Below are positions 3,708-37,238 of a stretch of DNA of 64,000 bases, piece after piece (position 1 is the stretch's first letter; each line of letters begins with the position of its first letter). This DNA is from Candidatus Nomurabacteria bacterium (lineage in GTDB: Bacteria; Patescibacteriota; Minisyncoccia; Phycocordibacterales; UBA9973). The translations under genes were made by a program, and so were the position numbers. The DNA is taken from NCBI GenBank assembly GCA_023267435.1, contig JAHFNH010000004.1, forward strand, positions 1,236 through 65,235, read 5' to 3'. Under the pieces are notes generated by a model that worked only from the letters and a program-made list of their open reading frames with translations, did no database searches and was not told where the DNA came from.

Positions 3708-6700
3708 ATGTTTAAAAAAATATTTGTTTCTTCTTTTATTATCGTCGCATTAACTGTCGGCGCTTTTGGCATTTCACATAGTGTCGCTGCCGCTCAGACT
3801 TCTTTGTGGCAAGTTGCTCAGCAACAAGTCGGAGCAGGAGCATCATCCGATGCACTTGTTTCAGCTACAAAAAATCTTGCTACTAAGCACGATATAAAGA
3901 TCCCAGAATGGAGTTGGAATCTTTCTGGAAAATTTGATGTTCGAAAATTATCTTTGTCATTTTTGAAATCAATTGCATCTCTCGCTTCTTTTGGTAAATC
4001 AAATGTTGCGCAAGTAGTTCCCACTACTCCTACTTATACTTACCAATATAGTTTTGGAAGTGCTGGCCTTGGTAATGGACAACTTCGTTATACTCAGAAT
4101 CTTACCTCTGATTCAGACGGTAATATTTATGTTGCCGATGCTTACTACAATCGTCCACGTATTCAAAAATTTGATCAAAACGGAACCTTTCTATTAGGTT
4201 GGGGAGGTTACGGTACAGGTGACACTCAATTTGTTGACATAAGCAGTTTAACTTTCTTTAAAGGACAAATTTATGTTTCTGAAGTAAATGTTGATGATAT
4301 AAAAGTTTTTGATACTTCAGGAAATTTTGTTAGAAAAATAGCATTGAGTGTTTCTGGAGAAAGACAATATTTTGTGGCTAAGATAGCATTAGATTCAAGA
4401 GGTAACATTTATGTTCTTAGTAACAATACTACAAACGTTGTATATAAATTTACAAATTCTGGTACTTATGTTTCTTCTTTCCCTGTTGAGAATCCAAACT
4501 CTGCAAATGCCTTACAAGGCATCACAGTTGATTCCAATAATAATATTTATGTAACTGGATACAACTTTATTCGAGAATTTGATTTAAATGGTACTCTTGT
4601 AAAATCTTTTAATGTCAGTAGTTTATTCGGTTTTTATGGTATAACCGTTGATCTTTCTGGTTACGCTTTTGTTGGTGATAATAGTTACCAACAAGTGGAT
4701 GAATTTGACCCATCTGGAAATTATTTAGCAAGCTTTAAGAATCCAAGTGGTGCTGCAATTTATGGTGTGACTCGAATAGGTAATGGTAATATTTATGCTG
4801 CTGATTTTCCTAGTCAAGTAGATGTATTTATACCTTCTACTCCTTCTACAATTCCACCAATTATAACAATTAATGATCCACTTTATCCTACTGTTGTGAG
4901 TACTGGTCAGCAAATGGTTTTTGCTACTGCATTTACAAACGCAAGTGGTGCTGATATGGGAACTTGTTCATTTATATCAGGAGATGGAAGTATGGTTCCT
5001 ACATATATTGCTAAAGACAATAATCAGAATGATGTATTAGCTGCAAATTATACATATCTAAAAGATGGAACATTTTCAGCTTTATTTGAGTGTGTTTCTC
5101 CTCTCGCTGGTACTATTAGTAATACGCCTACTTCTATTATAGCTAGCACTTTAGACACAACTCCTCCAACAGTTGCTTCTACAAGTCCAACAGATTTATC
5201 TACAAATGTTTCTATTAATACAACCATTGAAGCAACCTTTAGTGAAGCGATAGATTGGAAAACTGCCAATAGCCAAAATGTTGTTCTTCTTGATCCGAAC
5301 GGTAATCAAGTTGAAGCAACCCTTTCTTCTAATAGTTCTATAGTAGGTGTTCTTTCTCCATCAGTACCACTAAATTACAACACAACTTATACAGTGATAA
5401 TTAAAAGAAATTTTAAAGATTTGGTTACAGGTGGCGTAGTAGCTGGTTTAACTGATCTAGCTGGAAATGAGATATCTGCTGATTTTGTTTGGTCATTTAC
5501 CACTGAAGCTAATCCAGTATCTGTAACAATTGGCGCAGTTCTTCCTACGGATACCACAGTCAATACAGCAACAGTATTTACTGCTAGTGTTACAAATCCA
5601 ACTGGCGTTGATTTAGGATCTTGTTATTTCTATGTAGGAATAAAATCTGTAGGTAATATACCTGCAACCTATGATGTGAAAGCTGGACAAGTCAGTGCAA
5701 CTTATACTTATGATACAGCTGGAGTTTATAATACCCAATTCTCTTGCAACGGTAGTCTTATAAGTGTTTCTGGTATTCCAACAGATGTAACTGTGACTAG
5801 TACTGTTCCTTCACCTTGTTCTATAACAATGGACAAAGCAAACCCAGATTTCGCTACATCATTAGGAACCATTTCTTTCGGTGGAGACGTTCTTGTTTCT
5901 TCCAACCCTAATTTATTATTCTCTTCAGATAACGGTGTTAAAAATGCTTGGAATAGTAAATATGATTTAAACTTGAATTCACCTACAGTCTACATGTTTG
6001 ACAAAGCAACAGGAGCGACTCTTCAGTTGACCAATGCCGCTTACGACGCAAAAACTCCTAGCTTTACATTCGACAAGCCAGCAGTAAATGTATTACTCTC
6101 AAAAGCAGCAGGTACTATGTCATACAAGTTTGATAATGGTGGAACAATCACCTTCGATGGTGGCGCCCTTGTTACATTTGCCGGACTAGAAGCATCTTTC
6201 GATGGTGGAACAACTTGGGTAACTTCTTACAAGACTGATCCTTATCCAAAAACATTCATTGTAAGAGATCCAAAAACACTAACAACTACAGACATCACAA
6301 ACGTATTACTTGATTCAAAAGCAGGAGCATTCTCTTTCTCAATAGCTCCAGTTTGTGTTGTTCCTCCTCCACCTTGTTCAACAACTACAACTCTTAACAA
6401 AGCAAACCCAGATTTCGCTACATCATTAGGAACCATTTCTTTCGGTGGAGACGTTCTTGTTTCTTCCAACCCTAATTTAGTAATGTCTGTAGACAATTCT
6501 CTTTGGGAAGGAAAACTTGATTTAAACCTTGTAGCCAAAACAAATATTGTTTATCTATGGGACAAACAAACAGGAGCTACTCTTCAGTTGACCAATGCCG
6601 CTTACGACGCAAAAACTCCTAGCTTCTCATTTGATAAACTACCTACAACAACTGTAGTTGAGTTATCAAAAATGAATACTACTTACACAGCATCAAATGG

Positions 6701-24625: not shown

Positions 24626-24979
24626 TTAAGAGGTATATTTTTTAATTTTCTCCAATGATTTATCTAAGTCTTTTTCTATTTCTGAATTCCAAAATCGGAT
24701 GACTTGGATATTCTTTGATTTTAAATATTCCGTGCGTGCTTTATCGTACTCTTTATTTTCTTTATGAATAGAGCCGTCTAATTCAATGGCGAGTTTTATT
24801 TTTGGTGCATAAAAATCAAGAATGAATTTCTCTATTGGGTGTTGCCTGCGAAATTTTACTCTGAGTTTATTGTTTCGTAGTTCTTTCCAAAGAATTTTTT
24901 CTGCTTCTGTTTCTTCTTTTCTGAGATAACGAGCTTTTGTTATTGATTGTAATTTTGGCATAAGATAATTATACCTCAC
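24626..24979 (-). CDS. DUF559 (Vsr/restriction-endonuclease-like) domain protein
   Basis: FRRQHPIEKFILDFYAPKIKLAIELDGSIHKENKEYDKARTEYLKSKNIQVIRFWNSEI matches the DUF559 endonuclease-domain pattern. Confidence 0.7.
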   Translation of the reverse strand: MRYNYLMPKLQSITKARYLRKEETEAEKILWKELRNNKLRVKFRRQHPIEKFILDFYAPKIKLAIELDGSIHKENKEYDKARTEYLKSKNIQVIRFWNSEIEKDLDKSLEKIKKYTS

Positions 24980-25085: not shown

Positions 25086-25712
25086 ATGATAATCACATAT
25101 TTCGGCAAGCAATTTTTTAAGATAACCCAGGGCGAGATGGTTTTAGCCTTTAATCCTGTTAGCAAGAATTCCAAGTCTGGCATTTCAGCTCACTTCGGTG
25201 CAGATATAGCATTAATTACGACTAATCATCCCGACTACAACGGCATAGACCAACTTTCTCACGGAGAGAGGGAACCTTTTGCTATTAAAGGTCCAGGAGA
25301 TTATGAAGTAAAAGAAATTTTTGTTAAAGGTGTTATGTCTGAGACAACATTGTCTGGTAAAAATTATATCAACACTATTTATGCGCTTTCAGTTGATAAT
25401 ATAAATATCGCTTTTTTAGGAGCGTTATCAAATGCAGAAATTTCAAAAGAAGCGCGTGAAGCAGTCGGCGAGCCGGATATTCTTTTTGTGCCAGTCGGTG
25501 GAAATGGTTTGCTTGATACAAAACAATCCGCAAAACTCGCTTTGTCTTTCGAACCAAAAATGATTATACCGATGGATTATGATAGTGCATCGCTTAAAGC
25601 TTTCTTAAAAGAAATTGGAGAAGAAAAAGCTGAAGCAGTAGACAAGCTCACACTTAAGAGAAAAGATTTAGAAGGCAAGGAAGGGGATGTTGTAGTTTTA
25701 AAATATGATTAA
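25086..25712 (+). CDS. MBL-fold metal-dependent hydrolase (UPF0173-like)
   Basis: ITYFGKQFFKI...LITTNHPDYNG...ILFVPVGGNG... pattern of the small MBL-fold hydrolases. The track ORF starts at 25038, inside repeat B; Met 25086 is the more likely start. Confidence 0.5.
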   Translation: MIITYFGKQFFKITQGEMVLAFNPVSKNSKSGISAHFGADIALITTNHPDYNGIDQLSHGEREPFAIKGPGDYEVKEIFVKGVMSETTLSGKNYINTIYALSVDNINIAFLGALSNAEISKEAREAVGEPDILFVPVGGNGLLDTKQSAKLALSFEPKMIIPMDYDSASLKAFLKEIGEEKAEAVDKLTLKRKDLEGKEGDVVVLKYD

Positions 25713-25977
25713 TTATACTAAAACAAAAGTTAAAAAAGCAGTCCATCATTTGAGACGTCAGCCAGAAGAAACTAGAAGGCACATTTCTCATGTCATTACA
25801 GCCATAGCAGCTGTTATCATGATAATTTTGTGGACCTATTCTTTAGGCAGGAGTTTGAGTAATCCTGAAAAAAAGGTTCAAATAAAAAATGATTTGCAGC
25901 CGTTTTCAGTTTTGAAAGATAATTTAGTTGGTGGGTATAATAGTATTTCAGTACCAAGTGGTAATGTGGTAAGATAA
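25705..25977 (+). CDS. small membrane-anchored protein, hypothetical
   Basis: Single TM ([15 protein letters not shown]), immediately upstream of gyrA. Confidence 0.35.
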
Positions 25978-25982
25978 TTTTT

Positions 25983-28445
25983 ATGGCAAAGAAACCTGTA
26001 GCACCAGTTGAAGAAACACCTCGCACAGACGGAATCCTTCCAGTCAATATTGTGACAGAAATGAAAGAATCGTATTTGGCATATGCCATGTCGGTTATCA
26101 CTGCGCGTGCCTTGCCAGATGTCAGAGACGGATTGAAGCCAGTGCATAGAAGAATTCTTTTCGCTATGAATGAAATGGGCTTGACTTCTTCTTCACGTTT
26201 CAGAAAATCTGCAGCAGTAGTGGGAGATGTGTTGGGAAAATATCATCCTCATGGAGACGTCGCTGTGTATGATTCGATGGTGAATATGGCGCAAGAATTT
26301 TCTTATCGTTATCCTTTGATTTTAGGACAAGGAAATTTCGGTTCGATAGATGGCGATAACGCCGCGGCGATGCGTTATACCGAAGCCAAGATGTCAAAGA
26401 TTTCCTCTGAACTTCTACGAGATTTAGAAAAAGAAACCGTTGATTTTAGACCAAACTACGACCAGACTCGCAAAGAACCCATTGTGCTTCCTTCAGCTGT
26501 TCCAGCGCTTCTTTTGAACGGTACATTGGGTATTGCTGTCGGTATGGCGACAAATATCCCTTCACATAATTTAGCGGAGGTAATAGACGCCACAACTCAT
26601 TTAATCGATAACGAAGATGCAACCACCGAAGATTTAATGCAATTTGTGAAAGGTCCCGATTTCCCAACAGGCGGAATAGCTTATGGATACAAGGATATGC
26701 TTCATGCGTACTCGACAGGGCGCGGAGGGGTTGTTTGTCGTGGAGAAGCAGAAATCATAGAGCAAAAAGGCGGATTATTCCAAATAATAATTACGTCAAT
26801 TCCTTTCCGTGTTAATAAAGCCAATTTAATAATGGCTATTGCTGAATTGGTTCAAGAAAAGAAACTGGAAGGCATAAAGGGTTTGCGAGATGAATCTACG
26901 AGAGATATTAGAGTTGTGATTGATTTGAAGTCTGGCGCGCACCCTGAAAAAGTTTTAAATTATATTTATAAAAATACCCAGCTTGAATCAAATTTCAATT
27001 TTAATATCGTGGCCTTGGTAGATGGCGTGCCTCAGACACTCTCACTCAAATCAATTCTTTCTGAATTTATTTCACACAGAAAGGAGGTTGTAAAAAGGAG
27101 ATTACAATACGATTTACGCAGAGCAGAAGAGCGTGAGCATATTTTGCTTGGCTTGAAAAAGGCGCTCGATAAGATAGATAAAGTTATCAGTATTATTCGT
27201 GCATCCAAAGATGCAGGGCTTGCAAAACTTAATTTAATAAAAGAATTTAAATTCTCTGATTTACAAGCGACTGCAATTCTTGAAATGAAGTTGCAGAAAT
27301 TGGCAGGCCTTGAGAGGAAAGCAGTTGAGAATGAATTGGCAGAAAAGCAGAAATTCATAAAAGAAGTAAAAGAACTTTTAGCAAATGCAAAGAAGATGTT
27401 GAAAGTTATTTCAGATGAATTAAAAGAAATTCGCGATAAATATGCCGATGAAAGAAGAACCAAGATAGTGAAAGGCGGAATAAAAGAAATTTCCGACGAA
27501 GATTTAATTCCAGAAAAAGAAACAATGCTGGTGTTTACTGCGGGCGGTTATGTAAAACGCACAGATCCTTCTGAATACCGCTCACAAAAAAGAGGCGGTG
27601 TTGGAGTTGTTGATCTTGAAACAAAAGAAGAAGATTTTGTGACGATGTTGGTCAGTGGTTCTACTCATAGTGATTTATTATTTTTTACCAATTTAGGTAA
27701 AGCTTATCAGATAAAAATGTATGACATTCCAGAAGGTCGCCGTGCGACAAAAGGCAAGTCGATTATGAATTTCCTTTCACTTTCAGGCGATGAAAAAGTG
27801 ACTTCTATTTTGCCAATGCCAAAGGAACTTAAAAAATCCCCAATCTCATTGATGTTGGTTACAAAAAATGGAACAGCTAAAAAAATGTCTGGAGAGAGTT
27901 TTAAAGATGTACGCCGAAGCGGAATTATTTCTATTCGCTTGGATAAGGGCGATGAGCTTTCAACTGCTCTTTCTGTAGATAAAGGTGATGAAGTTATGAT
28001 TGCGACTGAAAATGGACAATCTATCAGATTTAAAGAATCAGATATTCGTGAAATGGGACGCACAGCCGGAGGTGTCAGAGGAATAAATCTTGGAAAAGGT
28101 GATACTGTTATCGGTGTGGATGTTGTTAAAAAAGAAAACAAAGCTGGAGCATTTTTGACAATGAGTGCAAACGGCTTGGGTAAGAAAACAAAACTTTCTG
28201 AATACAAAGTCCAGAAGCGCGGAGGTTCTGGTATTAAGACAGCGAAAGTTACTCCTAAAACAGGAAAGTTAATCGTTTCCAAAGTTCTAACAGGCGAGGA
28301 GGAAGAAATCATCGCTATGTCCAAAAAAGGACAAGTCATCAGAACAGCTCTAAAAGATATTCCATCTCTCGGCCGTCAGACACAAGGTGTTACCATAATG
28401 CGTCTACGCGGTGGCGATGGTATTGCATCTATCGCTTGTGTTTAA
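25983..28445 (+). CDS. gyrA: DNA gyrase subunit A
   Basis: [31 protein letters not shown], and GyrA box-like C-terminal repeats. Confidence 0.95.
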
Positions 28446-28473
28446 AAAGCTTTTTTAGTGTTATTATATAAAT

Positions 28474-29007
28474 ATGTTTGCCGATCCGGAAAAAATTTTA
28501 AAGCAAATTGGTATTCAGGATAATATGATTGTCGCGGACTTGGGCGCTGGTTCAGGCTTTTATTCTATTTTGGCTGCGCAAATGGCGTCAAACGGAAAAG
28601 TCTACGCTGTTGAAATACAGAAAGATTTTTTGACGACAATTAAAAATAAAGCAAACGATGCGCATTTGAATAATTTGGAAACTATTTGGGGAGATGTTGA
28701 GCAAGTTGGAGGTACAAAATTAAAAGATGAAATTATAGATAGAGTAATCGCTTCAAATGTTTTATTTCAAATCGTAAATAAACAGAAATTTATAGATGAA
28801 GCTTTTAGAATTTTAAAACCGGAAGGGAAGATACTTCTGATTGATTGGACAGATGCAATGGAAGTTTTGAGACCAAAAAAAGAGGTTATTATAAACAAAG
28901 AACAAGCCCGTGAAATGTTTGAGAAAAAAGGTTTTGTTTATGAGCGGGATATTGATGCTGGAATGCACCATTATGGTATGATATTAAAGAAGGTTGTAAA
29001 TGCGTAG
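28474..29007 (+). CDS. class I SAM-dependent methyltransferase
   Basis: VADLGAGSGFYSILAA motif I, short Rossmann-fold MTase. Confidence 0.6.
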   Translation: MFADPEKILKQIGIQDNMIVADLGAGSGFYSILAAQMASNGKVYAVEIQKDFLTTIKNKANDAHLNNLETIWGDVEQVGGTKLKDEIIDRVIASNVLFQIVNKQKFIDEAFRILKPEGKILLIDWTDAMEVLRPKKEVIINKEQAREMFEKKGFVYERDIDAGMHHYGMILKKVVNA

Positions 29008-29014
29008 ATAATAT

Positions 29015-30301
29015 ATGAAAGGAAATTTTCAAATAATACTTTTAATAGTTTTTGTTGCCGCAGCTGTTTTAGGACTTTTGGTGTTTTCAGGAGCGATACC
29101 ACTTGGTAAAAATAGCAACACAGCCGGTGGGCAGGGCACTGTCGTTTTATGGGGCACTGTTGGTCAGCAATTTATATCCAAACCCCTCGATATTCTAAAT
29201 CGTGCCAATCCAAGCTTTGTTGTGAAATATGTTCAAAAAGATCCAGCGACATTTGATCAGGATTTACTCGAAGCTTTGGCTTCAGGCAACGGTCCTGATT
29301 TATTTTTCTTGCCTGATAATTTAGCATTTCATTATAGTAATAGAATATCTGTCATACCATACGCCAGTTTTTCTTTGGCATCTTTTAAGAATTATTTTGC
29401 CGGAGCGGGCGAGGTTTTTTTAACCTCAAAAGGCATTCTTGCTTTTCCTATGTTTATTGATCCGATGGTTATGTATTACAACCGAAGCATTTTAGATTCA
29501 AACAACATAGTCAATCCTCCTGCATCTTGGGATGAATTACAAAATATGGCTCAAACTTTAACTCAAAAAGATCAGGGTAAAAAAATCATCCAGAGCGCGG
29601 TTGCTATGGGACAATTTTCAAATATAACTCATGCTAAAGACATTATCTCCACTCTTTTCATGCAAGCTGGTAATCCTATAACAACTGAAAAAAACGGTTT
29701 GTTTTCTTCGGCTTTGAAAGATACAGCTGATTTAGGTCCCGTTCTTAAGTTCTACACAGATTTTTCCGATCCATTGAATCCTGTTTATTCTTGGAATAAA
29801 TCTTTACCTCCATCCATAAATGTTTTTAGTTCTGGAGATCTGGCTTTTTATTTCGGCTATGCGAGCGAGTTACCATCTTTGATAAATCGCAATCCAAATG
29901 AAAACTTCTTGGCTGCACCTATGCCTCAATTAAAAAATTCAAATACAAAAATCACATCTGCCAGAGTCACCGGTATCGCTATTTCATCTTTTTCAAAAAA
30001 TCCGACAGCTGCTTTCACTGTGATGGGTCTTATCGCGACAGGAGATTTTGCTAAAGATCTCGCTAATGCACTTTCTACCGTACCAGCGAGACGCGATCTT
30101 TTAGCAACGAAACCAACCGATGCTTATTTCCCGATTTTTTATTCCTCCGCTCTTTTTGCTAAAAGTTGGATCGATCCATCTCCGTCAGATACTGATGATA
30201 TTTTTAGAGGAATGGTTGATAAAGTTCTTTCCAACGATATGTCACCTAGCAATGTAGTCAGCGACGCATCTGCTAAATTAGGACTTTTATTAGCTAGATA
30301 A
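29015..30301 (+). CDS. membrane-anchored extracellular solute-binding-like protein (SBP family 1-like)
   Basis: N-terminal TM anchor. PDLFFLPDN, FIDPMVMYYNRSIL and PASWDELQ resemble MalE-type SBP motifs. Confidence 0.4.
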   Translation: MKGNFQIILLIVFVAAAVLGLLVFSGAIPLGKNSNTAGGQGTVVLWGTVGQQFISKPLDILNRANPSFVVKYVQKDPATFDQDLLEALASGNGPDLFFLPDNLAFHYSNRISVIPYASFSLASFKNYFAGAGEVFLTSKGILAFPMFIDPMVMYYNRSILDSNNIVNPPASWDELQNMAQTLTQKDQGKKIIQSAVAMGQFSNITHAKDIISTLFMQAGNPITTEKNGLFSSALKDTADLGPVLKFYTDFSDPLNPVYSWNKSLPPSINVFSSGDLAFYFGYASELPSLINRNPNENFLAAPMPQLKNSNTKITSARVTGIAISSFSKNPTAAFTVMGLIATGDFAKDLANALSTVPARRDLLATKPTDAYFPIFYSSALFAKSWIDPSPSDTDDIFRGMVDKVLSNDMSPSNVVSDASAKLGLLLAR

Positions 30302-30305
30302 AATT

Positions 30306-31799
30306 GTGCCAAACATGATTTTGGTAAATCAAATGAAAAATTTAAAGAAAAAAATATTATTAATAAGCACACTTTCAATATTATTTTTTTCTTTTTTGTT
30401 TACTAATTATGCTTTTGCAAATGTTGCACTTACTAAAACATTTTCTGGATCAACCAAGGTTACAATAAAAGCAACAGGTCTTTTTTCTGGTGGAGATTAC
30501 AGTTTGGCTGTTCATAGTTCTTCTGCTTCAACTCCCGCATACAATAAAACTTTACAGCTTAAAGCAGACAGCGCTGGCATGGTTCAAGGGGATTTTATCG
30601 ACTTAGCTCCAAATGGTAGCTACTCAGCTTTCGTTATGATATATGACTCTACCAGCAGTAATGTTCAACCAGCGCTCGCTACGATTGATTTCACAGCACC
30701 AATAGCCGGTTCGGGTTCTGTTGTCATCACCACTTCATCTATAACGCAAACCTCTGCCATATTTAGGGTTTCAGGTCTTATTCCTCACAATCAATATACG
30801 ATAGGGGTTTATAATACCGATTCATCTACGCCTGCATATAACCAGCAAGTACATTTTACCGGAGCTAGCAATGACAGAATAATTTCTATTCCAAATTTAA
30901 CTCCTGATGGTCACTATACGGCTTACATAACTCCTTTTGATAATACCAGTAATGTGCAACCCAGAATTGCTACGGTTGATTTCGCGACGCTCACAAGCAA
31001 TATCACCGCTCCGAAAATTACTGCGAGTGTTTCAGAAATAACTTCAACCAGTGCAAAGATTACCGTAAACATAGAACAATTTGATCCATCTTTATTTCCA
31101 ATCAGACTCGGTTTGGCTTCCGGCAAGACCGGCGGAACAGTTTCTGTTAGATCTTTTAATACAGAAAATTTAATTCCTACTGACATTCCTCATAGCGTGG
31201 ATATCACTTTAACTTTAGATCCAGGTTCTGATTATTCATTTAGAATTATAAAATTAGGTAGCAATGCTCCTTACACAGATATTCAGACTTTCTCAACTCC
31301 AGCCACAGTCGTTACTACTCCGCCAAACAATACTCCACCAGACAATACCACTACGACAAATACTTACACTCCTCCGGCTATTTATGAACCAGTTGGCGGT
31401 CTAGTGCCATGCGGTACTGCTCGCTATAAAGCAGGAGACGTCGCTCCTAATGGAAAGGTAATTCCAAAAGATAGGCCTACAAATGATCAAGCACTTTTAG
31501 ATACTTATGCATATTTAGGACAAGTAAAAAATCCTTGTGATTTTAATTATGCTCTTACTTTGATAAATAATGTTGTTAAGTTTATTCTTTTCGGTTTAGC
31601 CATACCTCTTGCTGCGATTATGTTCATGTATGCCGGATTTGAAATGGTGACAGCTGGCGGAAGCGAGGAAAAGGCAGGGAAGGCAAGGAGAATATTCACC
31701 AACGCTGTCATAGGTTTAGCACTCGCAGCTGCTGCATGGCTTATCGTAGAGTTAATATTAACAACACTCGGGTACGACGGGTCTTGGATTGGATTTTAA
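30306..31799 (+). CDS. fusion protein: signal peptide + three ~95-aa Ig/FN3-like repeats + Pro/Thr linker + C-terminal two-helix TrbC/VirB2-like (T4SS-pilin-like) domain
   Basis: Repeats each carry ...TPAYN...NVQP(A/R)(L/I)ATxDF. The C-terminal VVKFILFGLAIPLAAIMFMYAGFEMVTAGGSEEKAGKARRIFTNAVIGLALAAAAWLIVELIL aligns with the four small proteins downstream. Confidence 0.55.
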   Translation: MPNMILVNQMKNLKKKILLISTLSILFFSFLFTNYAFANVALTKTFSGSTKVTIKATGLFSGGDYSLAVHSSSASTPAYNKTLQLKADSAGMVQGDFIDLAPNGSYSAFVMIYDSTSSNVQPALATIDFTAPIAGSGSVVITTSSITQTSAIFRVSGLIPHNQYTIGVYNTDSSTPAYNQQVHFTGASNDRIISIPNLTPDGHYTAYITPFDNTSNVQPRIATVDFATLTSNITAPKITASVSEITSTSAKITVNIEQFDPSLFPIRLGLASGKTGGTVSVRSFNTENLIPTDIPHSVDITLTLDPGSDYSFRIIKLGSNAPYTDIQTFSTPATVVTTPPNNTPPDNTTTTNTYTPPAIYEPVGGLVPCGTARYKAGDVAPNGKVIPKDRPTNDQALLDTYAYLGQVKNPCDFNYALTLINNVVKFILFGLAIPLAAIMFMYAGFEMVTAGGSEEKAGKARRIFTNAVIGLALAAAAWLIVELILTTLGYDGSWIGF

Positions 31800-32180
31800 A
31801 TGATGTATAATATAGGAATGAATAAAAAACTTTCGAAATTAATGCTTTTGGCTGTTGTGTTTTTAATGCCAGTTATTTCTTTTGCCGATGTCATAGGTGG
31901 TGCACCTGCTGATCTTTCAGGTAAAATAGTGAATCCTATAAGCTCTAGCACTTTAAATGATTTTATACAACTAATACTTAAAGGTGCCATAAAAATCGGC
32001 ATACCGATCATAGCATTAGCCATCATTTACTGTGGTTTTCTTTTTGTGAAAGCTCGTGGTAATCCGGGAGAAATAGAAGTGGCTAAAAAATCTTTGACTT
32101 ATACTATTATCGGAGCAGCGATACTTCTAGGCGCATGGGCTATCGCTCAGCTCGTGGCTAATACAATTTTAGCACTTTAA
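31800..32180 (+). CDS. TrbC/VirB2-like (T4SS-pilin-like) small protein, paralog 1
   Basis: Signal peptide (…VISFA), two hydrophobic helices separated by KARGNPGEIEVAKKS. 126 aa. Confidence 0.5.
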   Translation: MMYNIGMNKKLSKLMLLAVVFLMPVISFADVIGGAPADLSGKIVNPISSSTLNDFIQLILKGAIKIGIPIIALAIIYCGFLFVKARGNPGEIEVAKKSLTYTIIGAAILLGAWAIAQLVANTILAL

Positions 32181-32211
32181 TTTTTATTAATTTTAAACAC
32201 TATTTAAATAC

Positions 32212-32649
32212 ATGAAAAATTTTAAAAAATTTATTTACTCACTTTTAATATTATCTATTTTTATTTTACCAGCAATTTCTTTGGCTCAATATACAGGTGG
32301 TCCAGGTGGTGGCAGTGCTTCTTCAAATGTAGTCAGTTCTTCTTGTTCCTTTCCAGCCAGTCCCACATTTGGAACTTTTGTAGATTTTATTACTTGCAAT
32401 ATTAATAAATCAATTCTTCCTCTTTTGTTTACTTTAGCTTTTGCAGCTTTTGTCTGGGGAATAGTGCAGTATGTCATTCTAGGTGCTGAAGAAGAGGCGA
32501 AAAGGGAAAAAGGCAGGCAGTTTATGATTTGGGGTATTATCGCTTTGGCCGTGATGATCTCAGTTTGGGGTATTGTTAATATATTCACTAATACTTTCGG
32601 TATAAAAAACACCAGTGTTCCCATTATTCCACAGCTTCCGACGCACTAG
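32212..32649 (+). CDS. TrbC/VirB2-like small protein, paralog 2
   Basis: Signal (…AISLAQ). Helix-loop-helix with GAEEEAKREKGRQFMIWGIIALAVMISVWGIVNIFTNTFGI. Confidence 0.5.
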   Translation: MKNFKKFIYSLLILSIFILPAISLAQYTGGPGGGSASSNVVSSSCSFPASPTFGTFVDFITCNINKSILPLLFTLAFAAFVWGIVQYVILGAEEEAKREKGRQFMIWGIIALAVMISVWGIVNIFTNTFGIKNTSVPIIPQLPTH

Positions 32650-32670
32650 TGTTTGTTTCCAAGGGTTTTA

Positions 32671-32679
32671 TGTTATAAT
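32671..32679 (+). promoter_or_regulatory. extended -10 promoter (TGtTATAAT) for the 32787 pilin-like gene
   Basis: Perfect extended -10. The predicted TSS places the HR hairpin in the 5' UTR. Confidence 0.45.
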
Positions 32680-32725
32680 TAAGTCACCTATAAATATTTA
32701 GGAAATTATTATTAACAGGTCGTTT

Positions 32726-32758
32726 TTCCGCCTCTACGGCGGATCGCCGATGAGGCGA
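32726..32758. repeat. HR hairpin repeat copy 2 (ttccgcctctacggcggatcgccgatgaggcga) in the 5' UTR
   Basis: Stem gcctc/gaggc with inner cggcg-gat-cgccg. Lies 28 nt upstream of the ATG at 32787. Confidence 0.7.
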
Positions 32759-32786
32759 TATTATTAATTAGGTTTTATAAAATTAT

Positions 32787-33182
32787 ATGAAAAAGAAATT
32801 CGCTTCATTAGTCGGTTTAGGTCTAGTTATGTCAGCTCCATTATTAGCTTTCGCTCAAAGTCAGCTTCAAACTACTTGTAGTAATGCGACAGGAACAATC
32901 CAGGGAATAATTTGCGATATCAGTAAAATTCTAAATACTGTTATCCCAGTTATCATCGTCTTGGGTGTTGTTTATTTCGTTTGGGGTGTTGTTACTTATG
33001 TTATCTCCAGTGAAGAGGAAGCAAAAGCAGCTGGTAAAAACAGAATGATTTGGGGAATCATCGGTCTTGTTGTTATTGTATCAATGTGGGGCTTGGTAAA
33101 TATTGTTGTTAATACTTTCGGATTACAGAGTTCTTCCATCCAAGTAAACGTCCCTTGTATTACCGGCACACCTGGCTGTTAA
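32787..33182 (+). CDS. TrbC/VirB2-like small protein, paralog 3
   Basis: Signal (…LLAFAQ). SSEEEAKAAGKNRMIWGIIGLVVIVSMWGLVNIVVNTFGL. Confidence 0.5.
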   Translation: MKKKFASLVGLGLVMSAPLLAFAQSQLQTTCSNATGTIQGIICDISKILNTVIPVIIVLGVVYFVWGVVTYVISSEEEAKAAGKNRMIWGIIGLVVIVSMWGLVNIVVNTFGLQSSSIQVNVPCITGTPGC

Positions 33183-33186
33183 TCTT

Positions 33187-33564
33187 ATGAATTTTTTATT
33201 TACCAATGTCGCTTATGCAGCCAATGCAGCGAGTGGTGAAAGTTTGGATAAGTTCATTCAGAATGTAAACAAGCTCATCATCAATCCGCTCATCATGTTG
33301 TTGTTCGCTTTGGCTCTAGTTTATTTTGTTTATGGACTTGTTCAGTTTATTGCAAATGCTGAAAACGAAGAGGAAAGATCAACAGGCAAGAAGCATATGA
33401 TTTGGGGGGTGATTGGTTTGACTATCATGCTGGGAGTTTGGACTCTTATAGCAATCATTACGAATACTTTAGGTATATCTTCATCAGATATAAATCCTCA
33501 AACAGGTACGGTAGATCTAAAGAATTATACTCCACCTCCAGGAAGCGGATTGTTAAATTTTTAA
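33187..33564 (+). CDS. TrbC/VirB2-like small protein, paralog 4
   Basis: ANAENEEERSTGKKHMIWGVIGLTIMLGVWTLIAIITNTLGI, same topology. Confidence 0.5.
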   Translation: MNFLFTNVAYAANAASGESLDKFIQNVNKLIINPLIMLLFALALVYFVYGLVQFIANAENEEERSTGKKHMIWGVIGLTIMLGVWTLIAIITNTLGISSSDINPQTGTVDLKNYTPPPGSGLLNF

Positions 33565-33624
33565 TTAGAAAATAAAAAGACCATTCACAATGTGTGAATG
33601 GTCTTTTTGCATCGGGCAATGCGA

Positions 33625-34530
33625 TTATACGCCCTCTTTGATCTCTACAACTTTGAATACTTTAGCCCAAACACTCGGTTTGTTTTCATTGTTGGAAGTT
33701 ATGACAGCATTTCCAGAAAGATAATTCGGAGGAACGTTAATTTCTCCTTTTCCTGAATATGCTACCGGATCTCTTATTCCCTGTAGTTTTACATTAATAG
33801 GTTCTCCATCTGTTTGGATGTGGAACGCGTATTCAATATCAACTGTAAGGGGAGTCCATCCTTCCTGCATAAGTACCAGAGCTGTCGGAACTTTTTCTGT
33901 CTTTTTTGTACTGTTATCAGCCTTGTTGCCGCTTTGAGATAAGTCTTTCATAAACTCTTTCATTTCTTTTGAAAGCTCATCTTTTTTTGCAGCGCTAGTG
34001 CTGGATGGGTATGAAAAATTTAAAAAAATAATTGCTACCATCGCACTTACAGCAAGTTTCCATGACTCTTTAAAGGCAAACAAAACAATGACAACGATAA
34101 CATTTGTGATCCAGAATAATTCCGCAGGGTTGTTCCACGCTTCCCAAATTCTTGGGAATTGTGTATATATGAGCCGTAGGCTTAATACATATATAGCAAA
34201 CGCTGCGATTCTTTTAACTAAATTACCTTGTTCCACTTTTCCGTTAAAAAAATCAATTACTCCAAAGTAAATCTTTAGTATTAAAGAACTTAAAAGCATG
34301 AAAGCTGTTATGTCGAATATAACCGCATTCATAGCGCTAAAAACATGTAATCCTTCTTCCTTTCCTTTGAATGATTCTGAAATTACAGGATAGGAATCAG
34401 CTGCTATAAATAACCAGATGTGCCAATTAAAGATGATTGATTCAGCAAGTTCTTTTAGCTTTTCTGCGCTACTCATCGCTCCCTTTATTCTTTTAAGGAA
34501 GTTGATGAATTTTTCAAACAATTTTTTCAT
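33625..34530 (-). CDS. polytopic membrane protein with a C-terminal beta-rich soluble domain (NfeD-like partner of an SPFH protein?)
   Basis: Four to five TM helices, then a ~90-aa C-terminal domain. Overlaps the upstream SPFH-like gene by 4 nt. Confidence 0.3.
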   Translation of the reverse strand: MKKLFEKFINFLKRIKGAMSSAEKLKELAESIIFNWHIWLFIAADSYPVISESFKGKEEGLHVFSAMNAVIFDITAFMLLSSLILKIYFGVIDFFNGKVEQGNLVKRIAAFAIYVLSLRLIYTQFPRIWEAWNNPAELFWITNVIVVIVLFAFKESWKLAVSAMVAIIFLNFSYPSSTSAAKKDELSKEMKEFMKDLSQSGNKADNSTKKTEKVPTALVLMQEGWTPLTVDIEYAFHIQTDGEPINVKLQGIRDPVAYSGKGEINVPPNYLSGNAVITSNNENKPSVWAKVFKVVEIKEGV

Positions 34531-35663
34531 TTTCGTGTCCTCCTTTTAGGTTTAGTTTTTTTACCATCAACACTTGTTGTGGCCATTACTTTAACATCAG
34601 ATGATGCTCCTCCTCCATAGCTTAGTAATTCAGTATCCTTTACTTGTTCCAGTTTCATAAACTCTGCAAGTTGAGGATTATTTTTCATTACTTTACCCAT
34701 TGAGTTAAAATAAGCTCCATCTGCATCTGCATCAATTAAACGAGCTTCTCTTCTTTTTTCAGCTGTTTTAACCAAAGCAGAACCTTCATTCTCTGCTATA
34801 AGTTTGGCAACTTGAGATTTCTCCACCTCTGCATTTGCGGGGCTCTTAACCATTTCATAGAATTTAAGCTCTACAAGATGAACTTTGATACCGAGCGCTT
34901 TTTCTGTAACAGCATCCACAGCTTCTATGATTGTTGTAGCAAGCTTAGAATTTTGGTCAAGCTTTCCCATATTTTGAAAAGTTTCCCAATCTTGATCGTT
35001 TGCAAAATCTTCAAAAGCTGTTTCTACGGCAGTTGAGGCTTGAGTAAAAATGATTCCCTGAGGGGGAACTTTAAAGATAACTTTAATAATGTTCATTACT
35101 TGAAATGTAACAATTAGAACAGCATTAATTTTAATAGTACCTTCATCTTTACCATCAACATTTTTACTAGCACCTTTTTTGCTTCTTGTGGCAGTTTTTT
35201 TAGCAGGTTTTGATTTCATTGCTTTCATTTCTACATCTGTAATTTCTACAGCGTGGGCATAAAAGCGGCTAAAAGAAGTACAATCTTCTTTTTCTTCCAA
35301 TTTTATGAAAGATTTTGCTTCAGGTGTTCTGTTTTCTACAAACTCACACCAAGAACGTTTGAAATGCATAATGCTAAAAATAGGACTTAAACCGATGTCA
35401 GTTATTCCAAGAAAGTTGAATAAACGACCTAATTTTTGTTTTTCACCAGGTTTCCAATCACCATGTTCGTCATAATGACCATCTTCTGAGTTAAATAATA
35501 TTTTTACAACATTTTCTCCTTTTACGACAACTTTCCCAGTTTCTGGTGCAAGTTGTGTATAGTTCCAGTCTCTTTTTGCCCAAGCTTTTAAAACTTGTAT
35601 AATAATAACAACTACTGTCATTATTCCAAAAAGAATGCTAAATGTAATAATGTGCGTTTCCAT
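34527..35663 (-). CDS. SPFH/band-7 (stomatin/HflC-like) membrane protein
   Basis: N-terminal TM. Central beta/alpha SPFH-like region and a C-terminal coiled coil (AKLIAENEGSALVKTAEKRREARLIDADADGAYFNSMGKVMKNNPQLAEFMKLEQ). Confidence 0.4.
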   Translation of the reverse strand: METHIITFSILFGIMTVVVIIIQVLKAWAKRDWNYTQLAPETGKVVVKGENVVKILFNSEDGHYDEHGDWKPGEKQKLGRLFNFLGITDIGLSPIFSIMHFKRSWCEFVENRTPEAKSFIKLEEKEDCTSFSRFYAHAVEITDVEMKAMKSKPAKKTATRSKKGASKNVDGKDEGTIKINAVLIVTFQVMNIIKVIFKVPPQGIIFTQASTAVETAFEDFANDQDWETFQNMGKLDQNSKLATTIIEAVDAVTEKALGIKVHLVELKFYEMVKSPANAEVEKSQVAKLIAENEGSALVKTAEKRREARLIDADADGAYFNSMGKVMKNNPQLAEFMKLEQVKDTELLSYGGGASSDVKVMATTSVDGKKTKPKRRTRK

Positions 35664-35705
35664 TGTTTGTTTCTCCTTTTTATTTTAGGTTAGTTTATTA
35701 TTTTT

Positions 35706-35762
35706 AGTTATGTTCAGCTAAATGCTCAAAATGAATTGAGCTACTTGGCTGAACATAACTAT
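35706..35762. repeat. nested inverted repeat (agttatgttcagc ... gctgaacataact, enclosing ctcaa-aatgaa-ttgag)
   Basis: 13-bp perfect outer stem with an inner 5-bp hairpin. Intergenic, upstream of the SPFH gene. Confidence 0.6.
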
Positions 35763-35816
35763 TTTTCTAACCAGTTTTCAAATAACTTATTACGCTTAAA
35801 GTATATCATAAACAAA

Positions 35817-35850
35817 CAAAAAAGTCAAGCCTTTCGGCTCGACTTTTTTG
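35817..35850. terminator. bidirectional-type terminator (A-run, gtcaagcc-tttc-ggctcgac, T-run)
   Basis: Hairpin flanked by A6 and T6, downstream of the minus-strand IPT gene. Confidence 0.5.
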
Positions 35851-35867
35851 TTATATTTTATAGCTTT

Positions 35868-36596
35868 TTAAGCGTGTTTTGGATGCAGTTCTTGTTTGGG
35901 TTTTTCTTGGGCGAAAGCCTTTCGAGCCAATATTACTATCAAGAGAATTAGGGCCAAAAGCAGTAACCATTGAGTCAAAGTTGTAGGCATTAAACCATTT
36001 GCTCCGAAGAGTGCGCCTGCAGCAAGACTGTTGCCGGTATTAGTTGATTTAGTTGGTGTACTTTTAGTGGTTGCAGCTGGAGGTGTTTTCTTTGGAGTTG
36101 TAGTTGTTGCAGTAGTAGTTGGTTTGTTTAAATGAAACAAAGCTGCGTTTGACATTCCGCCTCCTGGTTGAGGGCTTAATACAGTTACTGAGTAAGCACC
36201 TACACCCGCCATATCTGATGTGGTAAGAGTCATGGTAAGAGTGTTTGAATTTATAAAAGTTGTAGCTCTTTCTGCACTATTCCATCTAGCCATAGATCCA
36301 GGTACAAAGTTTGCTCCAGTGATCACTACGGTTACAGGATTACTTGTTGTATTTGCAGAATTTGGACTGATTGAATAGATAACTGGAGTAGGGTTGCTGT
36401 AAGTTGGTGTTGGGTTTGTAACAGGAGGATAGGAAGGATTTGGATTGGTAGGATTAGATGGTGCTGAAGTTCCACTACCTGCAGAATAGAAGCCTGCATT
36501 AGCATGCATAGGCAAGACAAACATAACACTGAAAATAGAAACAGCCAGTATCCCCAAGGCGTTTAATATTAAGTTGTTATTTGTTTTAGTTTTCAT
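35868..36596 (-). CDS. cell-surface protein with an IPT/TIG-like domain and C-terminal membrane anchor
   Basis: Signal peptide. Pro/Thr/Asn-rich linker. IYSISPNSANTTSNPVTVVITGANFVPGSMARW is IPT-like. The C-terminal TTLTQWLLLLALILLIVILARK resembles a sorting-signal/TM anchor. Confidence 0.5.
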   Translation of the reverse strand: MKTKTNNNLILNALGILAVSIFSVMFVLPMHANAGFYSAGSGTSAPSNPTNPNPSYPPVTNPTPTYSNPTPVIYSISPNSANTTSNPVTVVITGANFVPGSMARWNSAERATTFINSNTLTMTLTTSDMAGVGAYSVTVLSPQPGGGMSNAALFHLNKPTTTATTTTPKKTPPAATTKSTPTKSTNTGNSLAAGALFGANGLMPTTLTQWLLLLALILLIVILARKAFAQEKPKQELHPKHA

Positions 36597-36652
36597 ACAG
36601 AAAGTATATCATATATAAATACAAAAGTCAAGCCTTACGATAACCTATTTTG

Positions 36653-36734
36653 TGCCGGGAGGGAGACTCGAACTCCCAAGGGTTGCCCCACTAGTTCCTA
36701 AGACTAGCGCGTATACCAATTCCGCCATCCCGGC
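36653..36734 (-). tRNA. tRNA-Leu (anticodon TAG)
   Basis: Cloverleaf read manually: acceptor GCCGGGA/TCCCGGC, anticodon stem CTAGT/ACTAG, loop CTTAGGA, long variable arm, T-arm GGGAG-TTCGAGT-CTCCC. Confidence 0.8.
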
Positions 36735-36737
36735 AAT

Positions 36738-36916
36738 GTATTAAACTCTAACATTAAAACAGTGCTTACGCACTCCGTCTCGCACAAGGATATTGTGGTC
36801 ACAAGTATTTTTCTACTGAAAAATCTCGCGAAGCCTATCGTATTAATAGGCACCTGTAGACGGCCCGCTCTCGGCACCGTCGTGCCTGCGGCTCGCACAA
36901 AGCATCCCATGCTTTG
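36738..36916 (-). ncRNA. 179-nt highly structured spacer between tRNA-Lys and tRNA-Leu (candidate small RNA)
   Basis: On the minus strand: GCACAAAGCAT-GGG-ATGCTTTGTGC, GGCAC-GACG-GTGCC, CCTAT-TAATACG-ATAGG hairpins. GC-rich relative to surroundings. Confidence 0.3.
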
Positions 36917-36989
36917 TGCGCCCACCAGGGATCGAACCTGGGACATTCTCCTTAAGAGGGAGCTACTCTACCAGCTGAGTTATGGGCGC
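36917..36989 (-). tRNA. tRNA-Lys (anticodon CTT)
   Basis: Acceptor GCGCCCA/TGGGCGC, D-stem ACTC/GAGT, anticodon loop CTCTTAA, T-arm CCAGG-TTCGATC-CCTGG. 73 nt. Confidence 0.8.
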
Positions 36990-37036
36990 ATGAAATATTC
37001 AGTTATCGGCGTATAAAAACAAAACTTAAACACCGG

Positions 37037-37118
37037 TGCCCGGAGTGGGGGTCGAACCCACATCCCTTGCGAGACACGATTTTAAGTCGTGCGCGTATAC
37101 CAATTCCGCCATCCGGGC
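37037..37118 (-). tRNA. tRNA-Leu (anticodon TAA)
   Basis: Acceptor GCCCGGA/TCCGGGC, anticodon stem CACGA/TCGTG, loop CTTAAAA, long variable arm. Confidence 0.8.
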
Positions 37119-37166
37119 AATTTTTAAATTATAATTCAAAACTATTCTTTTCTCAAATTACAATTG

Positions 37167-37238
37167 AGGCCTGGGGCGGAATTGAACCGCCGCATAGAGA
37201 TTTTGCAGATCTCTGCCTTACCACTTGGCTACCAGGCC
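37167..37238 (-). tRNA. tRNA-Cys (anticodon GCA)
   Basis: Acceptor GGCCTGG/CCAGGCC, anticodon stem GAGAT/ATCTC, loop CTGCAAA, T-arm GGCGG-TTCAATT-CCGCC. Confidence 0.8.

What the first reader, a model, noticed from the sequence alone, without database searches (positions are those of the whole stretch)
31800..33564. Tandem array of four TrbC/VirB2-like (T4SS-pilin-like) two-helix proteins
Four consecutive 125-145-aa proteins share the same design: a cleavable signal peptide (…AFA/…ALAQ), a hydrophobic helix, a short acidic/basic loop ((S/G)xEEEAK…GK), and a second hydrophobic helix ending …W(G/T)(I/L)VNI…NTFG(I/L). This topology matches conjugative and T4SS pilins (TrbC/VirB2) and CPR-specific T4SS-pilin-like families. 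The genes are diversifying paralogs sitting next to an adhesin-pilin fusion and a solute-binding-like protein. This suggests a surface filament or secretion-associated system that may mediate host or partner attachment in an episymbiotic lifestyle. No VirB4/VirB6 ATPase or channel genes are in the window, so the machinery is unknown.
Basis: inference. Interest (0 to 1): 0.8.

Follow-up and report, generated by a model that had tools for sequence, protein, structure and literature searches.

The report
VirB2-like pilin gene array, Patescibacteria
This is a conserved set of five small membrane "pilin-like" genes, one of them fused to three fibronectin-type domains, of a kind already described in ultrasmall episymbiotic bacteria (Patescibacteria); they probably build a type IV secretion surface tube used to contact a host cell.

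Summary
The four ORFs exist as described. With the upstream 488-aa protein they form a five-gene array. All five score above Pfam's cut-off for PF18895 (T4SS_pilin). One also passes TrbC/VirB2, and one passes an NCBIfam model for a pilin-like conjugal transfer protein.

VirB2-like pilin arrays in Patescibacteria were reported by Wang et al. 2023 (essential in Southlakia epibionticum) and catalogued by Quiñonero-Coronel et al. 2025 (441 arrays, about 25% identity between paralogs). NCBI names close homologues "pilin".

What I add:
- The array sits at a fixed chromosomal locus (gyrA–methyltransferase–SBP–pilins) in 80 Nomurabacteria-type species.
- Each window gene has a position-specific orthologue (about 53% identity, against 22–27% between paralogs). 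The set is old and fixed, not recently diversifying.
- The last pilin lacks a signal peptide.
- The first pilin carries swappable adhesion-type ectodomains; in this window they are three FN3 domains.
- Different pilin units are often fused in one polypeptide in relatives, which suggests a mixed-subunit assembly.
- No virB4 lies within 10 kb in any locus, but relatives encode VirB4/VirB3/VirB6 elsewhere.

Whether a pilus is formed remains inference.

The parts
29015..30301 (+). Membrane-anchored orphan solute-binding protein (SBP_bac_1/SBP_bac_8), always immediately upstream of the array. A functional link to the array is unproven.
   Evidence: Pfam E 4e-18. N-terminal TM segment at aa 7-25. 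Directly upstream of the first pilin gene in every locus with enough flank. Orthologues are 63-78% identical. No ABC permease or ATPase partner for it in the window.
30333..31799 (+). Array member 1: signal peptide, three FN3 domains, T/P/N-rich linker, Cys-containing neck, then a C-terminal VirB2-like pilin domain (aa ~395-488).
   Evidence: PF18895 42.5 bits, TrbC E 0.0014. The 488-aa product is an exact database match. AF2 model: three 7-strand sandwiches at aa 32-121, 131-214 and 229-321, plus a helical hairpin at 404-478. Foldseek matches triple-FN3 fragments at E 6e-12. P0126 is 30% identical over the full length and has fn3 above the Pfam cut-off.
31800..32180 (+). Array member 2 (126 aa): signal peptide plus two TM helices. 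This is the most VirB2/TrbC-like member.
   Evidence: PF18895 37.9 bits; PF04956 TrbC 30.4 bits, above the cut-off of 27.9, across profile positions 8-97 of 98. Three hydrophobic segments. Its best hits fall at the second gene of the array: position -4 of five-gene arrays (55 loci) or -5 of six-gene arrays (21 loci), out of 80.
32212..32649 (+). Array member 3 (145 aa): signal peptide, Cys-pair ectodomain, two TM helices, loop GAEEEAKREKGR.
   Evidence: PF18895 33.3 bits. Orthologues at position -3 in 74 of 82 loci. In 49 of 81 relatives the gene at this slot carries two pilin domains.
32787..33182 (+). Array member 4 (131 aa): signal peptide, conserved Cys pair, two TM helices, loop SSEEEAKAAGKNR.
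   Evidence: PF18895 47 bits. 232 homologues, all PF18895, named 'pilin' by NCBI. AF2 helical hairpin at 38-73 and 77-110. Orthologues at position -2 in 76 of 82 loci.
33187..33564 (+). Array member 5 (125 aa): leaderless two-TM pilin-like protein, loop NAENEEERSTGKK.
   Evidence: PF18895 36.7 bits. NCBIfam NF045849 43.3 bits against a cut-off of 40. Only two hydrophobic segments. Orthologues are last in the array in 78 of 82 loci and mostly leaderless.
33574..33608 (.). Palindromic hairpin flanked by an A-run and a T-run. Likely a bidirectional terminator closing the array and the convergent downstream operon.
   Evidence: 16-bp stem with 5 GC pairs, the second strongest terminator-like site in the region scanned, 25500-36800.

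Best explanation
The locus encodes five distinct VirB2-like (PF18895) pilin subunits of the Patescibacteria type IV secretion system.

Shown:
- Family membership.
- The design of two helices joined by a charged loop.
- A fixed gene order with position-specific orthologues across about 80 species.
- An FN3 ectodomain on member 1.

Inferred mechanism:
1. Members 1-4 are inserted by Sec and trimmed by signal peptidase. Member 5 inserts without a leader.
2. All sit N-out/C-out in the membrane with the charged loop in the cytoplasm.
3. A VirB4/TrsD/VirB3/VirB6 machine encoded elsewhere in the genome extracts them and stacks them on a VirB6 platform.
4. The result is a short tube or pilus of mixed subunits that crosses the wall. 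The loop lines the lumen. The variable termini, and the FN3 domains of member 1, face outward and contact the host cell.

What the tube carries (effectors out, or DNA and metabolites in) is unknown.
For: - Pfam PF18895 is above the cut-off for all five; TrbC/VirB2 is above it for member 2; NF045849 is above it for member 5.
- Topology and helical hairpin.
- Homologues are confined to Paceibacterota and Nomurabacteria MAGs and are named 'pilin'.
- The same kind of array is described in PMC12102498. It is essential in S. epibionticum (PMC10633639; PMC12857230).
- Six of six relatives that carry this locus are listed as VirB4-positive. One of them has VirB2-VirB4-TrsD-VirB3-VirB6 at CDS 292-298.
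- In each orthogroup the helices and loop are conserved while the termini vary, as expected if the loop lines a lumen and the termini are exposed.
- Different paralog units are covalently fused in 49 of 81 relatives, and poly-pilins of up to 16 units exist. This fits co-assembly with N- and C-termini on the same outer face.
- Ectodomains on member 1 are adhesion-type modules: FN3, TIG, TSP1, CHB_HEX_C, DUF5018.
- PrgF, a leaderless two-TM protein of a monoderm T4SS, was recently shown to behave as a VirB2-like pilus subunit on VirB6 (bioRxiv 10.64898/2025.12.18.695078).
Against: - No T4SS ATPase or channel gene lies in the window, or within 10 kb of the array in any of 80 relatives. The link to the machine is therefore indirect, and I could not check this genome itself.
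- Similarity to experimentally proven pilins is weak. Four of five are below the TrbC cut-off.
- hhalign against seven genuine VirB2/TrbC proteins gave probabilities of 10% or less. The best single-comparison P was 8.5e-4.
- There was no hit to pCF10 PrgF, no PDB sequence hit and no significant Foldseek hit for the hairpin.
- No T4SS pilus has been seen on any Patescibacterium.
- PF18895 was named by inference, so membership does not prove filament formation.
Confidence: 0.6

Rival explanations
1. The proteins are membrane-resident. The PF18895 hairpin is a membrane anchor or oligomerisation module that holds surface domains (such as the FN3 repeats) on the cell, or forms part of a membrane complex. 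No extracellular filament is built and no T4SS is needed.
For: - The array is never next to virB4 in this clade.
- Many family members are large proteins with diverse ectodomains ending in this hairpin.
- The array's constant neighbours are housekeeping and envelope genes: an SBP, a Band_7/SPFH protein and a surface protein.
- No pilus has been visualised (PMC12857230).
Against: - Four of the five genes have almost no ectodomain to anchor.
- The cytoplasmic loop is as strongly conserved as the helices, which is unnecessary for a simple anchor.
- There are TrbC/VirB2 and conjugation-pilin HMM hits.
- In other Patescibacteria classes the same family lies inside the T4SS cluster and is essential.
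Confidence: 0.22
2. The paralogs are alternative major pilins used one at a time. This would be surface variation to match different host strains or to evade host defences, as proposed for Bartonella and Anaplasma VirB2 paralogs and suggested for Patescibacteria in PMC12102498.
For: - Identity between paralogs is low (22-27%).
- The exposed termini are variable.
- Ectodomains on member 1 turn over rapidly between species.
- The literature makes this suggestion.
Against: - Each paralog has a position-specific orthologue at about 53% identity in about 80 species. The set is ancient and every member is kept under constraint.
- Different units are covalently fused in one protein in most relatives. 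This forces co-expression and co-assembly.
- The genes are tightly spaced on one strand, with a single strong terminator-like hairpin, after the last gene.
Confidence: 0.1
3. The proteins are unrelated small two-TM proteins, for example holin-like, immunity or stress proteins. Their pilin HMM hits would then reflect only hydrophobic composition.
For: - Weak spurious hits to many TM families appear in the same scans.
- hhalign and fold searches against proven pilins are not significant.
Against: - PF18895 hits are above the curated cut-off over the full profile for all five. TrbC hits align in the same register.
- The family co-localises with virB4 in 1,135 assemblies.
- PADLOC gave no defence-system hit for any of the neighbouring proteins scanned (the SBP and the three downstream genes); the upstream methyltransferase matched only the methyltransferase region of a mad2 model.
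Confidence: 0.05

Closest known systems
VirB2-like pilin arrays of Patescibacteria (Wang et al. 2023, Cell, PMC10633639; Quiñonero-Coronel et al. 2025, Microb Genom, PMC12102498)
   Same: - Same Pfam family (PF18895, with PF04956).
- Tandem arrangement of 2-11 genes.
- About 25% identity between paralogs.
- Monoderm ultrasmall host organism.
- Chromosomal location, with no relaxase context.
   Different: - In S. epibionticum the six pilins lie inside the essential T4SS cluster. Here the array is at a separate, fixed gyrA-SBP locus with no virB4 within 10 kb, across the whole Nomurabacteria-type clade.
- The published survey says arrays are most abundant in Microgenomatia and Saccharimonadia. 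For one relative it lists only two hits (a T_virB2 and a FATA_PrgF match) at what appears to be this locus (the mapping is my inference).
- FN3-pilin fusions, the SBP neighbour and position-specific orthology are not mentioned there.
VirB2/TrbC conjugative pilins of Gram-negative T4SS (Agrobacterium VirB2, RP4 TrbC, R388 TrwL)
   Same: - Signal peptide, two hydrophobic helices and a short charged loop.
- Small size.
- TrbC HMM hit above the cut-off for member 2.
   Different: - Not encoded next to virB3/virB4.
- Five different paralogs instead of one.
- Longer Cys-containing N-terminal ectodomains, and one member with three FN3 domains.
- No sign of a cyclisation system.
- Profile-profile similarity is not significant.
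PrgF of pCF10 and other VirB2-like proteins of Gram-positive T4SS (ter Beek et al. 2025, bioRxiv 10.64898/2025.12.18.695078)
   Same: - Monoderm context. The Patescibacteria T4SS derives from the same MPF-FATA class.
- Member 5 is, like PrgF, a leaderless two-TM protein with an acidic/basic loop.
- The probable orthologue of member 5 in a relative is listed as a FATA_PrgF hit.
   Different: - PrgF is 75 aa, single-copy and adjacent to virB6 (prgH).
- PrgF does not hit PF18895.
- hhalign of the window groups against PrgF is not significant.
Mbov_0395-family pilin-like conjugal transfer protein of Mycoplasma ICEs (NCBIfam NF045849)
   Same: Member 5 scores above the curated cut-off (43.3 against 40). 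Members 3 and 4 score just below it (28 and 38 bits).
   Different: The ICE protein is part of a mobile conjugative element. Here there is no relaxase, integrase or T4SS gene in 64 kb, and the locus is vertically inherited.

Membership tests
Pfam PF18895 T4SS_pilin | Whole-protein HMM score at or above the gathering cut-off (26.6 bits) | tested here: met
   47.0, 42.5, 37.9, 36.7 and 33.3 bits for the five proteins.
Pfam PF18895 T4SS_pilin | Two hydrophobic helices joined by a short charged loop | tested here: met
   Hydropathy. AF2 hairpins at 38-73/77-110 in member 4 and 404-440/445-478 in member 1.
Patescibacteria VirB2-like pilin array (PMC12102498) | Two or more PF18895/PF04956 genes in tandem, or separated by one gene | tested here: met
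   Five consecutive genes at 30333-33564.
Patescibacteria VirB2-like pilin array (PMC12102498) | Highly divergent paralogs (mean about 25% identity) | tested here: met
   22-27% identity to member 2.
Patescibacteria VirB2-like pilin array (PMC12102498) | The genome also encodes a VirB4-type T4SS | not testable with these tools
   Only 64 kb of the genome is available, and the source genome is not among the species representatives (best 66% identity). In relatives with the same locus it is met: six of six are VirB4-positive, and a full cluster is listed for GCA_000991415.1.
TrbC/VirB2 conjugative pilin (PF04956) | HMM score at or above the gathering cut-off (27.9 bits) | tested here: inconclusive
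   Member 2 scores 30.4 bits (met). Members 1, 5 and 4 score 19.2, 18.4 and 16.0 bits (not met). Member 3 has no hit.
TrbC/VirB2 conjugative pilin (PF04956) | Encoded in a T4SS operon beside virB3/virB4 | tested here: not met
   No VirB3, VirB4, VirB6 or VirD4 in the window, and none within 10 kb in 80 related loci.
TrbC/VirB2 conjugative pilin (PF04956) | Detectable profile or fold similarity to experimentally proven pilins | tested here: inconclusive
   hhalign against 7 genuine VirB2/TrbC proteins: probability 10% or less, best P 8.5e-4. Foldseek on the PDB gave E>1. PDB sequence searches gave no pilin.
TrbC/VirB2 conjugative pilin (PF04956) | Polymerises into an extracellular pilus | not testable with these tools
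   Needs microscopy, biochemistry or multimer modelling with the cognate VirB6.
PrgF-type VirB2-like protein of monoderm T4SS | Small leaderless two-TM protein with a charged loop, adjacent to virB6 | tested here: inconclusive
   Member 5 is leaderless with two TM helices. It is 125 aa, is not near a virB6 gene, and has no significant hhalign match to PrgF. The CONJScan FATA_prgF profile was not available here.
Type IV pilus (T4P) pilins | Class III signal peptide with a G|F/M-x-x-x-E prepilin-peptidase motif and a single N-terminal hydrophobic helix | tested here: not met
   The sequences read show ordinary AxA-type signal ends (SFA|D, SLA|Q, AFA|Q) and two TM helices. There are no PilB, PilC or PilM genes in the window.

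The most novel reading that the evidence does not exclude
The five paralogs are fixed, non-redundant building blocks of one mixed-subunit T4SS filament in a monoderm. Member 1 would act as a built-in tip or side adhesin whose FN3, TIG or TSP1 ectodomain is swapped between species to set host specificity. It would replace the missing VirB5 and adhesins. The always-adjacent orphan sugar-type SBP would take part in host-surface recognition or pilus function. This would be a heteropolymeric VirB2 pilus with covalently attached adhesin domains, which has not been described for any T4SS.
Probability: 0.25. Interest if true: 0.65.

Novelty: new member of a known kind. Interest (0 to 1): 0.35.

Why it matters
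Patescibacteria make up a large share of bacterial diversity and live attached to other cells. In the one genetically tractable species, the T4SS and its pilin array are essential, yet their role is described as completely unknown (PMC11665869).

This locus adds no new class. It does provide a clean comparative data set: a five-to-seven-unit pilin set conserved in order across about 80 species, with one subunit carrying exchangeable adhesion domains. That set gives testable predictions about which subunits are structural, which contact the host, and whether the assembly is heteromeric.

Tried and rejected
- **Foldseek of the member-4 AF2 model against the PDB.** No hit below E=1. A two-helix hairpin is too simple for this test.
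- **PDB sequence searches with the paralog profile and with member 2.** Only spurious rhodopsin and similar hits.
- **tblastn of member 2 against 72,556 plasmids.** Nothing relevant.
- **hhalign of the window and orthologue alignments.** Not significant against seven real VirB2/TrbC proteins retrieved from plasmids or against pCF10 PrgF.
- **Identifying the source genome.** The listing of cluster members gave no names. A look-up of GyrA found no record. The genome-contig scan showed the genome is not a species representative. VirB4 in the same genome therefore could not be checked.
- **Testing the SBP-pilin link outside the syntenic clade.** The SBP search returned only close orthologues (63-78% identity). 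Adjacency may simply reflect conserved gene order.
- **First attempt to fold the fusion protein with alignment A4.** I repeated the job with A5.
- **PADLOC scan of neighbouring genes.** No defence system.
- **T4P pilins.** Considered and rejected: wrong signal-peptide class and two TM helices.
- **A mobile conjugative element.** Considered and rejected: the window is housekeeping chromosome (uvrA, uvrC, secA, mur genes, gyrA, infB, clpB) and the locus is vertically syntenic.
Full report
**1. The observation**

They align with one another, and with the C-terminus of the upstream gene, at 22-27% identity. The shared features are two hydrophobic helices, a short acidic/basic loop and an invariant Trp in helix 2. 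HMMs built from these sequences find exactly five pilin-domain ORFs in the 64-kb window, all in this cluster.

Hydropathy gives an N-terminal signal-like segment plus two TM-like helices for the fusion protein and the first three small proteins. The last protein has only two helices. It starts 4 nt after the preceding stop, so it cannot have a longer N-terminus.

Gene spacing is tight (31, 0-18, 31, 137 and 4 nt). A 16-bp palindromic hairpin at 33574-33608 closes the array against a convergent operon.

**2. Family assignment**

- All five proteins score above the gathering cut-off of Pfam PF18895 T4SS_pilin (33.3-47.0 bits against 26.6).
- The 31800 protein also passes PF04956 TrbC/VirB2 (30.4 against 27.9), across nearly the whole profile. 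Three others hit TrbC below the cut-off, in the same register.
- NCBIfam NF045849 (Mbov_0395-family pilin-like conjugal transfer protein of Mycoplasma ICEs) is passed by the last protein (43.3 against 40) and narrowly missed by two others.
- A database search with the 131-aa protein returned 232 homologues. All carry PF18895 and come from Paceibacterota, Nomurabacteria or Patescibacteria MAGs. Several are named 'pilin' by NCBI.
- A profile of the five paralogs finds 57,897 cluster representatives at E≤1e-3 among 1.84 billion proteins. This is a very large family.

**3. The rest of the window**

Pfam annotation of essentially all ORFs of at least 110 aa shows an ordinary chromosome: uvrA, uvrC, ddl, secA, three mur ligases, S1 protein, gyrA, infB, rbfA, clpB, a P-type ATPase, znuABC, typA, mnmA and others. 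There is no VirB4, VirB6, VirB3, VirD4, relaxase, PilB or PilC.

**4. What is already known**

- Quiñonero-Coronel et al. 2025 (PMC12102498) searched 3,035 Patescibacteria genomes with PF18895 and PF04956. They found VirB2-like pilins in 1,948 VirB4-positive assemblies, near virB4 in only 1,135 of them.
[quoted passage not shown] It proposes antigenic variation or host-range adaptation.
- Wang et al. 2023 (PMC10633639) showed that the T4SS cluster of Southlakia epibionticum, including its pilin series, is essential for epibiotic growth.
- A 2025 review calls this the only monoderm T4SS with VirB2-like pilins and speculates about a pilus conduit.
- A perspective article states that the role of the T4SS is 'completely unknown'.
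- A December 2025 preprint reports that pCF10 PrgF, a leaderless 75-aa two-TM protein, is an essential VirB2-like subunit. It is modelled as a pilus on a VirB6 pentamer, and similar proteins occur in most Gram-positive T4SS.

The finding therefore belongs to a described class.

**5. New comparative evidence**

*Conserved locus.* Context look-ups and a scan of species-representative genomes (80 loci, all Nomurabacteria/Paceibacterota-type) show one conserved locus in every case with enough flank:

S1< – metallo-β-lactamase-fold> – gyrA> – methyltransferase> – SBP> – 5 or 6 pilin-domain genes> – (membrane protein / Band_7)< – surface protein< – rbfA< – infB< – DUF4446< – aminotransferase> – clpB>

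No locus has room for virB4 within 10 kb.

*T4SS genes in relatives.* Six of six relatives that appear in the paper's Table S1 are VirB4-positive. For GCA_000991415.1, the genome of my locus L040, Table S3 lists VirB2(PF18895)-VirB4-TrsD-VirB3-VirB6 at CDS 292-298. Far away it lists a 'T_virB2' hit at CDS 551 and a 'FATA_PrgF' hit at CDS 554. That spacing fits the second and fifth genes of this array. The mapping is my inference, but it agrees with member 2 being the best TrbC match and member 5 the best conjugation-pilin match in my own scans.

*Position-specific orthology.* Each window gene finds its best match at the same array position in other species. For example, member 4 matches position -2 in 76 of 82 loci and member 5 matches the last position in 78 of 82. 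Median identity to these orthologues is 51-55%. The paralogs are therefore ancient and individually maintained, not recently diversifying.

*Pattern of conservation.* Within each orthogroup the helices and the loop are highly conserved, while the N-terminal ectodomain and the C-terminal tail vary.

*Leaderless last member.* The absence of a signal peptide in the last member is conserved.

*Fused pilin units.* In 49 of 81 loci the third-from-last gene carries two pilin domains. Loci hold 5, 6 or 7 units (20, 38 and 16 loci). The wider family includes polypeptides with up to 16 units joined by short linkers and with no internal signal peptides. Such fusions are only topologically possible if each unit is N-out/C-out. 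They force co-assembly of different units.

**6. The fusion protein**

Its true start is ATG 30333, giving 488 aa, an exact database match. Homologues share only the C-terminal pilin domain. Their N-terminal parts differ: fn3, CHB_HEX_C_1/Fn3_assoc, TIG, and an InlB-type B-repeat.

Nineteen of the 80 related loci have a pilin of at least 300 aa (321-966 aa), in every case the first gene of the array. A Pfam scan of these long first-position pilins together with some two-domain third-slot pilins (28 proteins) found fn3, Pur_ac_phosph_N, DUF5018 and TSP_1 domains.

The AF2 model has three 7-strand sandwiches (the first at pLDDT about 90), a disordered T/P/N-rich linker and a helical hairpin. Foldseek matches three-domain FN3 fragments at E about 6e-12. 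P0126 is 30% identical over the full length and has fn3 above the Pfam cut-off, aligned with repeat 3.

**7. Limits of the homology to proven pilins**

- Profile-profile comparison with seven genuine VirB2/TrbC proteins gave probabilities of 10% or less. The best single-comparison P was 8.5e-4, for the pilin domain of member 1.
- Comparison with PrgF gave nothing, and PrgF itself does not hit PF18895.
- Fold and PDB sequence searches were uninformative.

Membership of PF18895 is firm. Homology to VirB2 is weakly supported. Pilus formation is inferred.

**8. Interpretation**

The best explanation (confidence about 0.6) is that these are five distinct VirB2-like subunits of the Patescibacteria MPF-FATA-derived T4SS. 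They would be assembled on VirB6 by a machine encoded elsewhere into a mixed-subunit tube or pilus. The charged loop would line the lumen, and the variable termini and FN3 domains would face outward for host contact.

The main rival (about 0.2) is a membrane-resident anchor or complex that forms no filament. Alternative pilins used one at a time (about 0.1) is disfavoured by the fixed orthology and the covalent fusions. A compositional artefact is unlikely (about 0.05).

**9. Verdict**

The moderately interesting additions are:
- the fixed locus remote from virB4;
- the ancient five-paralog set;
- the leaderless last member;
- the exchangeable adhesion ectodomains on the first member;
- the constant SBP neighbour, whose functional link is unproven because the whole region is syntenic.

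Noticed in passing
Proteins P0256, P0258, P0265, P0267, P0302; loci L009, L013, L021 and others, third-from-last pilin gene: Poly-pilins: single polypeptides with 2-16 tandem PF18895 units (for example 1,775 aa with 16 units). The units are joined by short linkers and have no internal signal peptides. In 49 of 81 syntenic loci the gene in the window-P2 slot holds two units.
   Followed up: partly
window 29015-30301 (+): Orphan, membrane-anchored sugar-type solute-binding protein with no ABC permease or ATPase nearby. It is more conserved (63-78% identity) than the pilins it always precedes. Whether it belongs to the pilin system could not be tested outside the syntenic clade.
   Followed up: partly
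window 33625-34530 (-) and 34527-35663 (-): Convergent pair just downstream of the array: a 301-aa multi-TM protein and a 378-aa protein with no Pfam hit. The gene at the matching position in relatives is annotated Band_7/SPFH. The 378-aa protein itself matched only 3 of the related loci at E<=1e-5, so the family assignment is not shown for it.
   Followed up: partly
window 35868-36596 (-): 242-aa surface protein with a signal peptide, a 'choice-of-anchor Z' repeat (NF058597, E 5e-26), a T/P-rich linker and a C-terminal TM anchor. The corresponding gene in one relative carries a TIG domain.
   Followed up: no
PMC12102498 Table S3, genome GCA_000991415.1 (= locus L040): At what appears to be this five-gene array, the published survey lists only two hits (T_virB2 at CDS 551 and FATA_PrgF at CDS 554). 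Nomurabacteria-type arrays may be under-counted among the reported 441 arrays.
   Followed up: partly
window 3708-9059 (+): 1,783-aa predicted surface protein with NHL/beta-propeller repeats, a Big_5 Ig-like domain and a C-terminal peptidoglycan-binding domain. It is another candidate host-interaction protein.
   Followed up: no
window 24626-24979 (-): DUF559 (Vsr-like endonuclease fold) protein between the S1 protein gene and the beta-lactamase-fold gene. It is absent from the gene lists of the three related loci inspected.
   Followed up: no
L003 5950-6576 and L004 5407-6033: A Y1_Tnp (IS200/IS605-type) transposase and an isochorismatase gene are inserted between gyrA and the methyltransferase in one relative. 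This is one of the few breaks in an otherwise rigid synteny.
   Followed up: no
window 36652-37238 (-): Cluster of four tRNA genes (Leu-TAG, Lys-CTT, Leu-TAA, Cys-GCA) between the surface-protein gene and rbfA.
   Followed up: no
window 32650-32786: The only long gap in the array (137 nt, between members 3 and 4) contains a weak hairpin at 32743-32759. Members 4 and 5 may have their own promoter or an attenuator.
   Followed up: no
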